A stretch of DNA of 64,000 nt from Octopus sinensis (Eukaryota). Shown here piece after piece: positions 24,283-53,350 of this stretch (position 1 is the first letter of the stretch; every line of letters begins with the position of its first letter). The notes under the pieces were generated by a model. The model was given only the letters and a program-made list of their open reading frames with translations. It did not search any database and had not been told where the DNA came from. Location of the stretch: contig NC_043002.1 in the NCBI RefSeq assembly GCF_006345805.1, forward strand, positions 31,806,001 to 31,870,000, given 5' to 3'. The translations under genes were made by a program, and so were the position numbers.

Positions 24283-24316
<34 letters not shown>

Positions 24317-24317
24317 A

Positions 24318-24889
24318 CAATTGAGGGTAAAATTAATTAATAATTTCACCAAGTGTTCAGTATGTAAAAGGACCATTTAAGGCGAATTCAAAATATTACA
24401 TTATATAATTAGGGCTTAGTAAAATAAATTACTTTGCCACATACTGAACTAAGTAGAAATAGCAGCCAAAAAATTTTTTTAGCCATTTCCACTACTTAAA
24501 GAAAATTTCTCTCAGATAATGTTTACTCCAGACAGCTCACGAAGGTTTGGAGGTAAATACAGAAAAATATCACAAGTACATAGATCGTTTGAGTACGTCA
24601 ACGTTTCAAGATTAGCCAAATAAAATCAGCATTTCTTTCGTCAGCTCAAAATTTCTTAATTTGGATTTTATTTGGCTAATCTTGAAACGTTGACGTACTC
24701 AAACGATCTATGTACTTGTGATATTTTTCTGTATTTACCTCCAAACCTTCGTGAGCTGTCTGGAGTAAACATTATCTGAGAGAAATTTTCTTTAAGTAGT
24801 GGAAATGGCTAAAAAAATTTTTGGCTGCTATTTCTACTTAGTTCAGTATGTGGCAAAGTAATTATTTTACTAAGCCCTAATTCTATAAT
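24318..24889. mobile_element. Palindromic hammerhead-bearing element (PLE-derived, non-autonomous) between (TA)n tracts
   Basis: Near-perfect inverted arms 24400-24627 and 24664-24889 (about 228 bp) with a 36-nt spacer. Confidence 0.85.
24588..24650 (-). ncRNA. Complete type-I hammerhead ribozyme
   Basis: Minus strand reads TTTGAG CTGACGA AAGAAATGCTGATTTTATTTGGCTAATCTT GAAACG TTGA CGTA CTCAAA: 6-bp stem I, stem II AAGA/TCTT plus extension, stem III ACG/CGT, GUA triplet. Confidence 0.9.
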
Positions 24890-39761: not shown

Positions 39762-40000
39762 TATCAAGGAAGCTAGGGCGAAAACGACCTATCTCCAGCA
39801 TGGTTGAAGTGCTGATATCTTCAAAAACTACCAAAAACTGCAGCTAAAAATACACACATGGCTGAAAGTGTGCTAGTGAGAGAAAATTTAAAATACCTCA
39901 CGTTAATTGTGAATTGGTTCCAATTTCTGGATTAAAGGAAAAAATAAGCCTTTTTTCCTTCGTCAACACAATACACAGAGGGAAATATGTGTCGAAATAA

Positions 40001-41819: not shown

Positions 41820-41982
41820 AGGCGCTGGCATGGTTGTGTGGTAAGAAACTTGCTTACCAACCACATGGTTTCGGGTTCAGCCCCACTACAAGGCACTTTG
41901 TGCAAGTGTCTTCTGCTATAGCCTCCGGCTTACCAAAGACTTGTGAGTGGATTTGGTAGACGGAAACTGAAAGAATCCCGTA

Positions 41983-41985
<3 letters not shown>
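41820..41985 (+). mobile_element. SINE family C 5' half
   Basis: GGCGCTGGCATGGTTGTGTGG...GGGTTCAGCCCC...GGAAACTGAAAGAA, ending in (TA)n. Confidence 0.85.
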
Positions 41986-42042
<57 letters not shown>

Positions 42043-42045
<3 letters not shown>

Positions 42046-42245
42046 GGTCCCGGGTTGATTCGGGGTTAACCACAGTAAATAAGGTACTCAATACATAGCA
42101 GAGTAAAATTAATTTATTATATAGAAGGAGCTTCTACAGGACTAGAACTGTTTCATTCAAGAGAAATCTTCAGAAAGTGCTTCCTGAAGATTTCTCTTGA
42201 ATGAAACAGTTCTAGTCCTGTAGAAGCTCCTTCTATATAATAAAT
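42043..42245. mobile_element. Small palindromic double-hammerhead element between (TA)n tracts
   Basis: Perfect arms 42112-42173 and 42184-42245 with a 10-nt loop. Confidence 0.85.
42179..42227 (+). ncRNA. Type-I hammerhead ribozyme (mirror copy on minus strand, 42130-42177)
   Basis: GCTTC CTGAAGA TTTCTCTTGAAT GAAACAG TTCTAGTC CTGTA GAAGC: 5-bp stem I, 4-bp stem III, GUA triplet; stem II short with a U-U first pair. Confidence 0.8.
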
Positions 42246-42251
42246 ATATAT

Positions 42252-42395
<144 letters not shown>

Positions 42396-43722: not shown

Positions 43723-46700
43723 GATTGATTGATTGATTGATTGATTCTAGTTTCAGCTTATGAGCTGTGGCCATGCTGGGGCACCGCCATTTGGTGTTGC
43801 TACTTGGTTTCACTTCATGGAGGCTTTCTAGCAACTGCTATTTGGTGCATGAGAGAGTTCGATGCAGCTGCCCTCATCTGCCCCTCCTGCCGTGAAGTTG
43901 GTTCATCTGGGACACCTGACAGAAGAGATCCAGCTTCATTTTAAAGACATCTGTATCCACCCCATGCAGGTCTCTCAGGTTCTTCGGAGGATATTGAAGA
44001 GCTGTGGGCCACGGAAGCCCAGGCTATCACAGAATCTTGTCCTACATCTTGATGGCAGGTTTGGAGTCCTAGGCACCACGCAGTGGCGCCCAGTTCTGGC
44101 ATTTGCGTAACTCTCGATGCCAAAGTTCAGGACACTTCCCTCCAGGATCTTCCAGATGTATATTATGGCATATCTTTCCCGCCTACGCTCCAGGGAATAT
44201 AATTTTAATCTCTTGAGTCTTTCCCCAGTAGCTTACATTCTGCATAGAGGCTATCTTCTTTGTGTAGCTTCGTTGGGTCGCCTCAAGTTCTGTGATCAAC
44301 TTGACACTGGATGGTGACCATAGCTGAGAGCAATAGTCAAAGTGGCTTAGGACAAGTGTCTTCCAGAGGACCATCATGGTTTCTTGTTCTCTTGTTCTAA
44401 AGGTTCTAAGAATCCATCCAGCCAGCCGTCTACATTTCAGTGTCAGTTTAGCAACATGTACATGAAAGGTCGCGTCATCACTCATGTGAATACCCAGGTC
44501 ACACACTGATTGTGCCTCTGGGATTGCAATCCCTCCGGGTCCAGTGTATTCATTGGGTATTGCATTCAGTTTTGCATGCTGATAGTATAAAGCTTGAAAC
44601 TTTCCAGCATTGAACTGCATGCTATTCTTTTCAGCCCACTTGTATATTTCGTCCAGCTCACATTGCAGGTGTTTAGTGTCCTCAGGGTTCTGTATTGCCT
44701 GTGAAACTTTGTATCATCTGCATAACTTGTGATCGTGGCTCTCTGCGTGGCTGAGGGCATGTCTGAGAGGGCCATTATGAACAGTAGTGGTCCCAGAACA
44801 GTGCCCTGCGGAACACCGCTCACTATTTGTGTGTTAATGGAGGTGGCCCCATTGGCTACTACCACCTGACTTCTATCCTTCAGAAAGTCATGAAGCCATT
44901 CTCCCAGTTTTCCAACTATGTTGAGATCACGCAGTTTTGTGACATATCATTCCATGATCGACTTTATCAAAGGCCTTTGCAAAGTCGAGATATATCACTT
45001 CCACATTTGAGTGGTTGAGCAGCCGTTTCAGCACCCAGTCATAGTGTTGTAGGAGCTGAGTTAAACAGCTTCTCCCTGGTCGGAAACCATGTTGGGGTCG
45101 GGCAGCAAGTCATTCTCTTCAAGGAAGGTGATCAGCTTCCTTCTGACTATTCGTTCCATGACCTTGCTGATGTGTGAGGTCAGAGAGATAGGTCTATAGT
45201 TCTTGGCTTCCGCTCTGCTACCTCCTTTATGAATGGGGCATATTTTACCTTCCTTCAGTTTTCCTGGAAGTTTGCCAGCTGCAAGGAAGCTCTGAAAGAG
45301 GAACTGCAGTGGTCTTGCTAGGACTCTCTTAAATACTTTTAGGAGGATTGCCGGAATCCATCGGGGCCAGTAGCTGAGTCTGTTTTCATTTCATCTATAG
45401 CCTTGGTTACATCTTCTTCCTTTATATCGATGTAATCTATCGTCGCCGCCTCTGATTTTATATCTGCAGTGTTAAAAAAGTCAGTTGGATTGGTGATTTG
45501 GAGATGCCCAAGGGGTGGAGTGAAAACACTCTTGAATTGCTCATTCAGTATTTCACTTACCCTCATTGGTTTTCCTGTAAGTGTGCCATCCTTTTCGAGG
45601 AGTGGCCCTATTCTACAGTGCACTGTAGCTGTTTCTTTGGCATACCTGTAGAAAGCTCTGGGTTAGATTTTATGTTTTCTATAGCCCAGGCTTCTCTGTC
45701 TGCTCTTTCTTTTTCATGGGAGAGTTGCAGACATTTTTCGATTTCCAACAGTTTTATTTTAGGCGGGACTTTTCACTGCTTTCAATCTGTTTGTTTAGTC
45801 GATTTGAAAATTTCGTACGCCGTCTCATTAAAATTTTCCTCTCTCTGGGGTTTTGTTCTTGTGTACAGTGGCTTTTCTCTCTGGGACACATTTGTAGCAT
45901 ATGGCTTGCATACAGACATGAATTGTTGAAGTTTCACGTCGATGTCTGGCGAGGAGAGACATTTAGGCCAGTTTTGTTTGAGGATCTCTTTCTCAATTTG
46001 TTTCAGTTTGCCTTATGGTAGTTCAAGCTGGAAAGATTTTGAGGGTTTCTTGTAGGCTGCATGTCCGTGCTCTCTTTTGGCCCGTACATGGTCAGCTCTA
46101 TCATGTTGTGATCCGAGAGTAGTGTCGGTGTCACTTTCACATTATGGATGAGATCCATGTCATTTGTGAAGCAGAGATCCAGTGTGTTTCCTGCCCTGGT
46201 TGGTTGGAGTATTACCTGCTCCATGTACAGGGTGTTGATGAGGTTCAGGAGGGACCTCGCCTGTCCTCGTTCACATCTTGTCATTCCTGGGAGAGAAAGG
46301 CCCTCGGGCCATCTGACATTGGGCAGATTGAAGTCTCCCATAAGAAGCACACCTATGTGTTGTTCTAATGTGGTTAGAATTTCTTCTATTTTTATAAGGC
46401 AGTCTTCAAACTTGCCCACATGGCTTGGGGCATCTGGAGGGCGATATGTAGCACACACAACTAACTCAAGTTGCCTGATATGTACAATTAGTGTGTCACA
46501 CACCGAGTTTGAGTATGACAAGAGGACCTGGGGTGTGAGGTCCTCACGGATGTACATAGCAACACCTCCATGACTCCTTTCTTTCCTGTCGGTCCGTAGT
46601 ACAGCATACTGTGGTATGTGTAACTCCGCATCTGCTATGTCCGTTTCAGGTGCGTTTCTGTAATTGCTATGCATAAGGCTTGATTGCATGCAACAAAGTC

Positions 46701-47413
46701 TCTCAGGAACGGGATCTTTGTCCTGCTACTGAGTGTTTGCAGTCCTCTGATTTTCAGTAGGAGTATCGAGGTGAGGTGTACGTTGTTGCCGGCGGTGTCC
46801 ATCCTGTGTCTGTTTGCTGTGGTGGTCTGGTATATAGTGGGTAGTCCCACCTGCGGGCTTGGGTTTGATGAAGCCAGGTCAGCTGCTGTACAATCTTTTG
46901 TGCCATGCACAAAAAAGATTGTTGCTCAGCAGCTGCTCTTTCGACATCATGTTGGCTGTTGTGGCGCGCACAACATCTGCGTACCTCCGCTTTGGGCAGG
47001 TGGAGCGTGTGGTCCATCCCTTTTCTTTGTGTTGATGGTTTGTCCATCTGCCTCGTGTCTCTGTGGCAGGGTCCCCGATGTGCAAAGCGGCAGCCTGCAC
47101 CTTCCTTTCCATGCCAGCAGGAACTCTCAGGTAGAACATACACACCCGTGTGTGCTGTTTGGTTCCATCCTTTGCGGTTCCACTTCTATTTCTGGTTGTT
47201 TCATCTTTGGTCCTGCTTGAGCTTTTTCTTTTCCTTTAGCTCTTCCAGTCCTTCTTTTAGTTCTTCTTCCTCCCTCTACCTCTTCACCGGGTTCTCCGTC
47301 TCCATGGCCCTTGCTGCCGGTTGGAGAACTTGCACCTGGGTTCACTTCCCGGGCAGGTTTCTCATTCAAAACCTCATCCCGGGCGTCCACCAGGTGGGGG
47401 TGACTTCTTTCAT
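43723..47413 (-). mobile_element. Near-full-length CR1-group LINE: partial ORF1 with Cys/His-rich region, ORF2 APE endonuclease plus RT, (AATC)n tail
   Basis: APE motifs ITETHL, DRKERSHGGVA, YRPP, GDFNLP, LDLCFT, SDHN (46003-46900); RT motifs SGVPQGTVLGPLLF, YADD, MQFNAGK, DLGI, DYCSQLWSP (44183-45623); several frameshifts. Confidence 0.93.
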
Positions 47414-52529: not shown

Positions 52530-53350
52530 ATGTGAATGAAAGAGAATAATCTTGTAGTAGATTAATCAAAAGTTTAAAACCGATACCTTAGTAGCAAAAT
52601 CACAGCAGTGAACAGCACCGGTTGGAAAGGTAAACCATCTGGCGTTGCAACCGTGCGTTGGTGCGGATAATTGAAATTAAAACATTATTGGTGAATTGAA
52701 GAAATGGACTGAACGCAGATTGAACAGAAATCGTTTTATTTCATTCTACACGTGTTTCGAAAGGCACAATTACCAAATCCGATTGATATGGGCCATATTG
52801 TGTCTTTCTCTTCAGGAGAAAAAAGGAAATCCGTTGGAAAACAAACCAGAACAAAGAGGCAGAGCAAAAACAATCGAACTGTGCTCCTAAGAGCCCATGG
52901 CGAAACTGTTTATCAGTGTTGTTTGAGAACCGGTGGCTGAAAATAACAACGGGTCAGGCATCGGTCAATCATGGGGTGAGGGTGTATAGATGTTCTTTGT
53001 GGACCGAGAAAGAAAGTTCTCGGTCACAAAGAACATCTATACACCCTCACCCACATGATTGACCGATGCCTGACTGTTGAATTCTTCAGCCACCGGTTCT
53101 CAACATACACTGATAAACAGTTTCGCCATGGGCTCTTAGGAGCACGTTCGATTTGTTTTTTGCTCTGCCTCTGTTCTGTTTTTGTTTTTCCAACGGATTT
53201 CCTTTTTTCTTCCTAAGAGAAAGACACAATAGGTCCCATTATTCAATCGGATTTGGTAATTTGTGCCTTTCGAAACACGTGTAGAATGAAATAAAACGAT
53301 TTCTGTTCATCTGCGTTCAGCTCCATTTCTTCAATTCACCAATAATGTTA
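52530..53350. mobile_element. Large palindromic hammerhead-bearing element between (TA)n tracts
   Basis: Inverted arms 52681-53010 and 53017-53349 (about 330 bp) with a 6-nt loop; arms differ mainly by 1-nt indels. Confidence 0.85.
52744..52820 (-). ncRNA. Type-I hammerhead ribozyme (mirror copy with damaged core on plus strand, 53208-53288)
   Basis: Minus strand reads CTGAAGA GAAAGACACAAT...ATTGTGCCTTTC GAAAC ACGT GTA GAA: long stem II, palindromic stem III ACACGTGT, GUA triplet; stem I weak (2-3 bp). Confidence 0.75.

What the first reader, a model, noticed from the sequence alone, without database searches (positions are those of the whole stretch)
42043..42245. Perfect 62-bp hairpin made of two back-to-back hammerheads
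Each strand encodes a full core, and the 10-nt loop supplies the 5' strand of stem I for both (GCTTC on plus, CTTT on minus). A transcript from either strand would contain a ribozyme and its exact antisense, so the long hairpin and the catalytic fold are mutually exclusive. This is a second independent case of inversion at the ribozyme.
Basis: partly seen in the sequence, partly recalled or inferred. Interest (0 to 1): 0.78.

Follow-up and report, generated by a model that had tools for sequence, protein, structure and literature searches.

The report
Retroelement stub marking a ribozyme-start promoter
This hairpin is one of several hundred dead-end, back-to-back stubs of a Penelope-like jumping gene, a known layout; what is new is that many stubs stop at the first base of the self-cutting RNA motif, often with an extra G and 29 bases after a TATA box, which likely marks the element's capped transcription start and shows how its RNA is likely copied from both sides of the DNA break.

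Summary
The perfect 62-bp hairpin and both hammerhead cores are real. They are not a designed antisense switch. They are the two arms of a short inverted insertion of a young Hydra-clade Penelope-like element (PLE) in (TA)n: about 2,800 exact cores genome-wide, with an RT/GIY-YIG ORF behind the same leader at other loci. Inverted arms with a one-sided tail are published PLE features, and this scan has noted them in other families of this genome. New here: in 36 of 90 unselected copies the tail-bearing arm ends within the 5' strand of stem I, with a wall at its first base. An untemplated G precedes that base in 15 of 19 AT-flanked copies of the young subfamily (only 10 of 27 in older ones). A TATA box lies 29 nt upstream in 146 of 168 leaders. 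None of 100 arms starts at the cleavage site, and two other hammerhead families lack the hot spot. Best reading (inferred): a capped sense RNA starts at stem I; both ends of the break prime cDNA at two internal sites, run off at the cap and are joined head to head. Against: 0 of 18 ORF-linked copies start there. No RNA evidence.

The parts
41984..42042 (.). (TA)n target, left side
42043..42111 (-). 69-nt PLE 'tail': 5' leader between the inner and the outer cDNA start site; in ORF-bearing copies it runs on into the ORF
   Evidence: 131 of 131 nt of the long arm identical to the leader of L063; leader-to-ORF continuity
42112..42173 (-). Left arm, tail-primed: hammerhead core 42173-42167, stem II 42166-42155, GAAA 42154-42151, stem III 42150-42137, predicted cut after 42135, 3' strand of stem I 42134-42131
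42174..42183 (.). Inversion junction: AAAGT (filler; its GT may be a copied cap plus a misread first base, not shown) followed by native GCTTC at 42179-42183 (positions +2 to +6 of the inferred transcript)
   Evidence: junction series
42184..42245 (+). Right arm, internally primed: core 42184-42190, stem II 42191-42202 (U-U first pair), GAAA 42203-42206, stem III 42207-42220 (CTAG palindrome in the loop), predicted cut after 42222, 3' strand of stem I 42223-42228; ends at the fixed inner end AATAAAT
42246..42285 (.). (TA)n target, right side; no target-site duplication can be read inside the microsatellite

Best explanation
The hairpin is a short inverted insertion of a Hydra-clade Penelope-like retroelement, and its two arms are likely two cDNAs that ran off the capped 5' end of the element's RNA, which likely begins at the first base of hammerhead stem I. 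Shown: family membership, two fixed 3' ends (AATAAAT and the tail end), a 5' wall at stem I, an untemplated G in front of it, and a TATA box 29 nt upstream. Inferred: (1) a TATA/initiator promoter in the pLTR fires at the A of AGCTTC, so the hammerhead fills the first ~50 nt of the mRNA and its cut would remove a 45-nt capped piece; (2) the endonuclease cuts both strands of (TA)n and each end primes reverse transcription, one at the inner site and one at the tail end; (3) both cDNAs (about 68 and 137 nt) run to the cap on RNA that is uncut or resealed, and the enzyme often copies the cap as one extra base; (4) the two cDNA ends are joined head to head by microhomology (often the AGCT palindrome) or filler. 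The product has no promoter and its antisense arm buries both ribozymes, so this copy is most likely inert.
For: Family: 1402+1394 exact cores, 1635+1644 tail motifs. ORF behind the same leader with RWR, DKT, YRDDGL, CxCX5C and a GIY-YIG-type domain without CCHH, matching the Hydra definition and, by eye, published Hydra proteins. 5' wall: among 90 tail-anchored loci (of the first 100 listed on contig C1), 36 end at 0 to -6 from the core, 4 end between -7 and -45, 33 run past -45, and 17 end downstream of the core start or lack a full core (36 of 40 in 7 of 46 positions, p about 2e-25; L177/L178 are a local duplicate). Extra G: all 34 cores with an AT-rich 5' flank were listed; of 19 starting exactly at -6, 15 have G, 2 C, 2 T, 0 A, where the native base is T and position -8 is never G (p about 1e-6). 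Across held loci, 22 of 25 non-T bases not explained by the opposite arm are G, on tail arms (8) and short arms (14). An extra G at full-length L1 5' junctions is read as cap copying (PMC11702581, passage). TATA box at 29 nt in 146 of 168 leaders, 27-28 nt in the other 22, with spacing kept in subfamilies whose spacer has diverged. Two cDNAs rather than fold-back: in L104, L108, L112 and L120 the tail arm stops before the ribozyme while the short arm is complete and starts with G-AGCTTC; the commonest non-palindromic junction puts the extra base on the short arm (5 of 24). Both arms share subfamily markers in 22 of 24. No cleavage-site ends: 0 of the first 100 arms. Controls: no hot spot in two other hammerhead families. 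Frangieh et al. 2024 showed two internal RT start sites, extension of both strands, and unprocessed RNA as the main substrate for another PLE (PMC11167929, parts 1-2 of 4).
Against: Of 30 leader-to-ORF matches (18 single loci plus two mini-arrays), none starts at -6: 9 singles keep sequence upstream of it and 9 start downstream or are rearranged (0/9 against 36/73, p = 0.004), so full-length copies were not simple run-offs from this start. Replication of the extra G in older subfamilies is weaker: 10 G, 8 C, 6 T, 3 A of 27 (p = 0.11, or 10 of 19 and p = 0.009 if the C rows, which look like short fold-back snippets of the core, are set aside). Those snippets also show that fold-back does occur. 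For this very copy the cap mark is not shown: 29 of 75 T-GCTTC cores have G in front (by eye) and many of those G's can come from the opposite arm. RTs can add C without a cap (own knowledge). No 5'-end RNA data. Of six published new Hydra families only one (Hydra-1_Ajap, TATATATT at -32) clearly has the same spacing; two are doubtful and three show none or are uninformative.
Confidence: 0.75

Rival explanations
1. The junction is fixed by DNA microhomology alone: two longer cDNAs anneal at the AGCT palindrome in stem I and the flaps are trimmed; no transcription start is involved.
For: The perfect GAAGCTTC junction is common (4 of 24 unselected; most of the 56 A rows of 100, by eye). Long copies also join at palindromes (L236/L237; L039).
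Against: A longer palindrome (GTTAAC) 7 nt upstream is hardly used (4 of 90 ends in -7 to -45). Non-inverted copies joined straight to (TA)n start at the same base with an extra G. It does not explain the TATA spacing.
Confidence: 0.1
2. One cDNA folds back on itself (self-priming) and copies itself into the second arm, as proposed for rotifer PLE palindromes, possibly on an antisense template (Arkhipova et al. 2013).
For: Arms share subfamily markers (22 of 24); near-symmetric junctions; short fold-back snippets exist (C rows).
Against: A short arm cannot template the tail, yet the extra base often sits on the short arm of tail-bearing copies, and some tail arms end before the ribozyme while the short arm is complete. 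The extra G fits the 5' end of a sense RNA. It may still account for some copies, perhaps this one.
Confidence: 0.1
3. The defined 5' end is made by RNA processing rather than initiation: ribozyme structure stalls the RT, or a splice acceptor (YAG|CTTCC) lies at stem I, as the intron end does in Drosophila virilis Penelope.
For: A pyrimidine-rich stretch and AG precede CTTCC in all subfamilies. The D. virilis intron ends at the 5' end of helix I (PMC4209133).
Against: Splicing predicts a boundary at -4 with a constant upstream exon; the mode is -6 and the upstream sequence varies. A stall would fall 3' of the structure and should show in other hammerhead families, which it does not. The cleavage product would begin at +39; none seen.
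Confidence: 0.04
4. A selected antisense switch that holds the ribozyme off until the hairpin opens.
For: The two folds exclude each other.
Against: About 110 kcal/mol separates them; loops differ from copy to copy (17 types in 24); the copy is identical to ORF-linked leaders and is one of an extrapolated ~870; no promoter in the copy; no gene seen next to it.
Confidence: 0.01

Closest known systems
Hydra clade of C-terminal EN+ Penelope-like elements (Craig et al. 2021, PMC8557442; abstract, passages, section 11 and parts of the supplement read), e.g. Hydra-1_Obim, Hydra-1_Ajap
   Same: RWR/RWK, DKT, CxCX5C linker, no CCHH in the endonuclease, (TA)n target, type I hammerhead with a U-U pair at the base of stem II, inverted 5'-truncated copy and one-sided tail.
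   Different: Not Hydra-1_Obim (different hammerhead and protein). Unit about 4.9 kb, with a long microsatellite-rich 3' UTR, against <3 kb. Tail 69 nt against 30-40. No fixed 5' wall, extra G or TATA-to-stem-I spacing is described in the parts read.
Poseidon from Anolis carolinensis, in vitro (Frangieh et al. 2024, PMC11167929; parts 1-2 of 4 and passages read)
   Same: Two internal RT start sites that define the tail, both strands extended, AT-rich target, unprocessed RNA as template, promoter assumed in the pLTR.
   Different: Other clade; ORF starts inside the hammerhead there and 184 nt after the inferred start here; no transcription start or inverted junction mapped there.
Opposite-strand dual hammerheads in PLE remnants (Cervera and de la Pena 2014, PMC4209133; parts 1-2 of 4 read)
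   Same: Pairs of hammerheads on opposite strands; weak monomer folds; palindromic loop III.
   Different: Reported 100-700 bp apart; here most often 3-20 nt apart at a fixed site.
Penelope of Drosophila virilis and rotifer Penelopes (PMC2377424, passages; PMC3846280, part 1 of 5 and passages)
   Same: Promoter in the pLTR; head-to-head inverted junctions with palindromes; a putative TATA box in a rotifer pLTR.
   Different: The D. virilis promoter is TATA-less, internal and starts 46 nt before an intron; the rotifer palindromes were read as self-priming on an antisense template, whereas the marks here point to a capped sense template.
LINE-1 twin priming and cap-derived extra G (PMC11702581, passages)
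   Same: Second target end primes a second cDNA; extra G at run-off ends.
   Different: L1 twin-primed segments do not overlap (own knowledge); here both cDNAs copy the same 68 nt, giving a perfect hairpin.

Membership tests
Hydra-clade PLE | Single ORF, RT followed by C-terminal GIY-YIG-type endonuclease | tested here: met
   L063 and L061 fragments and a 490-residue open frame in L224; 39-41% identity to P0001 in three parts. Pfam and PDB searches gave no family.
Hydra-clade PLE | RWK-type and DKT motifs | tested here: met
   RWR in L224; DKT in L063; L224 has an A-run insertion at that place.
Hydra-clade PLE | CxCX5C linker; no CCHH in the endonuclease; CxxC and CxH further on | tested here: met
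   Read by eye in the L061 and L063 translations against the definition.
Hydra-clade PLE | (TA)n target and canonical hammerhead | tested here: met
Hydra-clade PLE | Short element (generally <3 kb) | tested here: not met
   Core-to-core distance 4946 nt in L063; the excess is a non-coding 3' region. The paper words this as a tendency.
Hydra-clade PLE | Placement in the clade by RT phylogeny | not tested
   Only motif comparison by eye with published proteins.
PLE insertion (general) | Inverted 5'-truncated copy plus tail at one end | tested here: met
   49 of 90 tail loci have an inverted short-arm end within 330 nt; long copies.
Type I hammerhead ribozyme | CUGANGA, GAAA, NUH and three stems | tested here: met
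   among 30 arms the only recurrent change in the core is at the free position N7.
Type I hammerhead ribozyme | G10.1-C11.1 pair | tested here: not met
   U-U precedes a U-A pair here; U-U at that place is common in Hydra-clade motifs.
Type I hammerhead ribozyme | Self-cleavage | not testable with these tools
   Predicted stem I pairing only about 0.2 in the native leader, where a competing hairpin takes its 3' strand.
Non-LTR retrozyme | Head-to-tail non-coding units, each with a hammerhead | tested here: not met
   This copy is a single inverted stub of a coding element; two mini-arrays of the family do fit (L235-L238, L244-L251).
MITE / DNA transposon | Equal terminal inverted repeats and a constant interior | tested here: not met
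   Arms of 131 and 62 nt; junction differs among copies.

The most novel reading that the evidence does not exclude
The promoter fires exactly at the first base of the ribozyme so that one transcript carries a complete hammerhead at each end. This gives two template pools: capped linear RNA yields the short run-off hairpins, while doubly cleaved and circularised unit-length RNA (or a strong-stop-like jump from the cap to the 3' repeat) yields the more-than-unit copies that regain the promoter and never stop at the cap or the cut site. The genome would then hold a fossil record of the PLE replication cycle and of what the PLE hammerhead is for: self-decapping and choice of template.
Probability: 0.3. 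Interest if true: 0.78.

Novelty: new variant of a known kind. Interest (0 to 1): 0.55.

Why it matters
Craig et al. 2021 call hammerhead function in endonuclease-bearing PLEs unclear and the origin of the tandem/inverted structures open; Arkhipova et al. 2013 left open whether the template is sense or antisense. Here about 870 (extrapolated) natural products give a base-exact prediction: a capped start at stem I, a sense template, priming from both target ends, and no use of cleaved 3' product as a run-off template. Each can be tested with CAGE and the existing in vitro PLE assay. The hairpin itself is ordinary transposon debris, though such copies are a possible source of double-stranded RNA when read through.

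Tried and rejected
Rfam gathering scan: nothing. Pfam and PDB: no family for the ORF. RNA: no RNA holder listed on record; four guessed-RNA runs are assembled contigs and cannot show starts or ends, so they are not used as evidence. The first sample is biased to junctions like the query (TGCTTC) and was not used for frequencies; loci L073-L102 contain duplicates. The pattern was meant to exclude native sequence but did not; it served as an unselected sample instead. 10 of the 100 listed tail places were not examined (one of them shares a fetched locus). A TGCTTC subfamily was rejected: the T is junction sequence. A native G at -7 was rejected for the young subfamily (none in 100 rows), but one older copy has it (L173). 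Likeness of stem II to a common shRNA loop (recalled) is chance: the sequence is in thousands of genomic copies. Literature searches for a prior report of a capped start at a PLE hammerhead or of twin priming in PLEs listed none by title or abstract start; the library lacks most subscription papers, and Repbase was not available. The retrozyme preprint 10.64898/2026.07.22.740005 (part 1 of 5 and passages; supplements closed) and PMC7229834 (passages) say nothing on inverted copies in the passages found.

Full report
Observation. The window has perfect 62-bp arms at 42112-42173 and 42184-42245 around the loop AAAGTGCTTC. The RNA hairpin folds at -104.6 kcal/mol, z = -21.7. Each strand carries a type I hammerhead: core CUGAAGA, a short stem II opened by U-U, GAAA, a 3-bp stem III with an 8-nt loop, and GUA, with cuts predicted after 42222 (plus) and 42135 (minus). 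The ribozyme folds are worth -5.7 and -0.4 kcal/mol against about -116 for the whole element, so a read-through transcript of either strand would be a hairpin. Rfam has no hit.

What it is. A genome search gave 74 matches among 40 scored candidates, most of them as divergent pairs. Exact counts are 2,796 cores and 3,279 tail motifs. The short copies share one plan: (TA)n, a long arm of core plus 69-nt tail, a variable junction, a short arm ending at AATAAAT, (TA)n. Other copies keep the native upstream sequence, in which stem I is the 6-bp AGCTTC/GAAGCT. At L063 the same leader, identical to the window's long arm in 131 of 131 nt, runs into an ORF and returns 4,946 nt later. The protein has RWR, DKT, YRDDGL, a CxCX5C linker and an endonuclease without CCHH. 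These are the marks of the Hydra clade (PMC8557442 section 11), and it resembles the published Hydra proteins by eye but is not Hydra-1_Obim. No tree was built. An inverted truncated copy with a one-sided tail is the known PLE layout, and opposite-strand hammerhead pairs were noted in 2014. U-U at the base of stem II is the family state (30 of 30) and occurs in 14 of 26 Hydra rows of File S2 (by eye). The host looks like an octopus from a recalled SINE and from earlier scan notes; I did not test this.

The fixed 5' end. I took 90 of the first 100 tail matches on contig C1, chosen without regard to the junction. In 36 the tail arm ends at 0 to -6 from the core, in 4 between -7 and -45, in 33 it runs past -45, and in 17 it ends downstream or lacks a full core (L222 was moved by hand from the first class to the second). 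The wall is at -6, the first base of stem I (p about 2e-25). In the core-anchored list 31 of 100 rows have their boundary there (by eye). Two unrelated hammerhead families of this window do not: about 4 of 100 rows (444 cores) and about 3 of 100 (3,062 cores). None of the first 100 arms begins at the cleavage site.

Why there. All 34 young-subfamily cores with an AT-rich 5' flank were listed. Eight keep native upstream sequence. Of 19 that start at -6, 15 have G in front, 2 C, 2 T; the native base is T. Seven start one base later or carry T at -6, four of them behind a G. Position -8 is never G among the 15, so the base is not a fold-back copy of the 3' strand of stem I. In LINE-1 such a G is read as cap copying. 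The older subfamilies give 10 G, 8 C, 6 T, 3 A of 27 (46 rows listed; 2 native-like rows and 17 rows not starting with AGCTTC left out), which is weaker (p = 0.11). The C rows read TTCAG in the young and mostly ATCAG in the old subfamilies, the reverse complement of each one's own core, so they look like fold-back snippets; without them G is 10 of 19 (p = 0.009). Independently, TATAAAT starts 29 nt before the A in 146 of 168 native leaders and 27-28 nt in the rest (these 168 include overlapping loci and array copies), and the spacing is kept where the spacer has diverged. The -1/+1 step is pyrimidine-purine in the young subfamily. I infer a capped polymerase II start at the first base of stem I. 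One of six new published Hydra families shows the same spacing clearly.

How the hairpin forms (inferred). A Poseidon protein starts RT at two internal sites, extends both strands and uses unprocessed RNA. Here the two fixed 3' ends are those sites. Both arms can carry the extra G (8 tail arms, 14 short arms), L193 carries it on both, and in L104, L108, L112 and L120 the tail arm ends before the ribozyme while the short arm is whole. A single fold-back cannot make those, two cDNAs can. Arms share subfamily markers in 22 of 24, which fits one RNA or one source locus. The ends join by microhomology or filler, 17 junction types in 24 copies. The window copy belongs to a minor class, (G)T-GCTTC (75 cores); its GT may be cap plus misread first base, but that is not shown. 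24 of 90 loci have two full cores within 60 nt, which extrapolates to about 870 such hairpins.

Against and open. None of 18 single leader-to-ORF loci starts at -6; 9 keep upstream sequence (8 well past the TATA box, 1 from the TATA box) and 9 start downstream or are rearranged (p = 0.004). Long copies therefore come from another route: read-through of tandem arrays, a jump from the cap to the 3' repeat, or a ribozyme-made circle as proposed in 2014. The last two are my novel case; nothing here separates the three. RNA runs were contigs only. Cleavage is untested, and the native leader is predicted to favour a competing hairpin (stem I pairing about 0.2).

Verdict. The hairpin is a real but common by-product of a known kind of element, and the scan has recorded that layout for other families (seen after my reading was formed). 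The added value is the base-exact 5' end, which ties promoter, ribozyme and inversion together and makes open questions on PLE replication testable. New variant of a known kind; interest 0.55.

Noticed in passing
window 24312-24885: Inverted insertion of another hammerhead family (159-bp perfect arms, one-sided tail, long stem II). 444 exact cores, often in tandem at 560-566 bp, so retrozyme-like; no junction hot spot at stem I.
   Followed up: partly
window 52730-53300: Third hammerhead family, about 280-bp inverted arms with long stem II and a CACGTG palindrome at stem III; 3,062 exact cores; the right-arm core is damaged here.
   Followed up: partly
L244-L251 and L235-L238: Mini tandem arrays (about 249 and 420 bp) of this family that keep TATA box, hammerhead, both RT start sites and the first codons of the ORF: candidate retrozymes caught being born from an identified autonomous parent.
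   Followed up: partly
L063:4528-4720: The inferred 183-nt leader has two short upstream ORFs, one starting inside stem II (+24) that cleavage would remove; main ATG at +184.
   Followed up: no
L063:6850-9470: About 2.6 kb of TG/TA-microsatellite-rich 3' UTR is carried as part of the element, so the family spreads microsatellites like its own target.
   Followed up: no
window 41822-41982: Short repeat ending in a CTGAAAGAA-type motif just before the (TA)n target; recalled as an octopus SINE; similar copies flank other loci (L023, L051).
   Followed up: no
window 39912-39966 (minus): Hammerhead-like motif with a UUGACGA core and long stem II.
   Followed up: no
window 44183-44713 and 46003-46725 (minus): Fragments that read like LINE RT and AP endonuclease (recalled, not scanned).
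   Followed up: no
L010 (minus, first 400 nt), L069:4835-5290, L072:5925-6401: Endonuclease or RT fragments that look like other PLE families next to or inside copies of this family.
   Followed up: no
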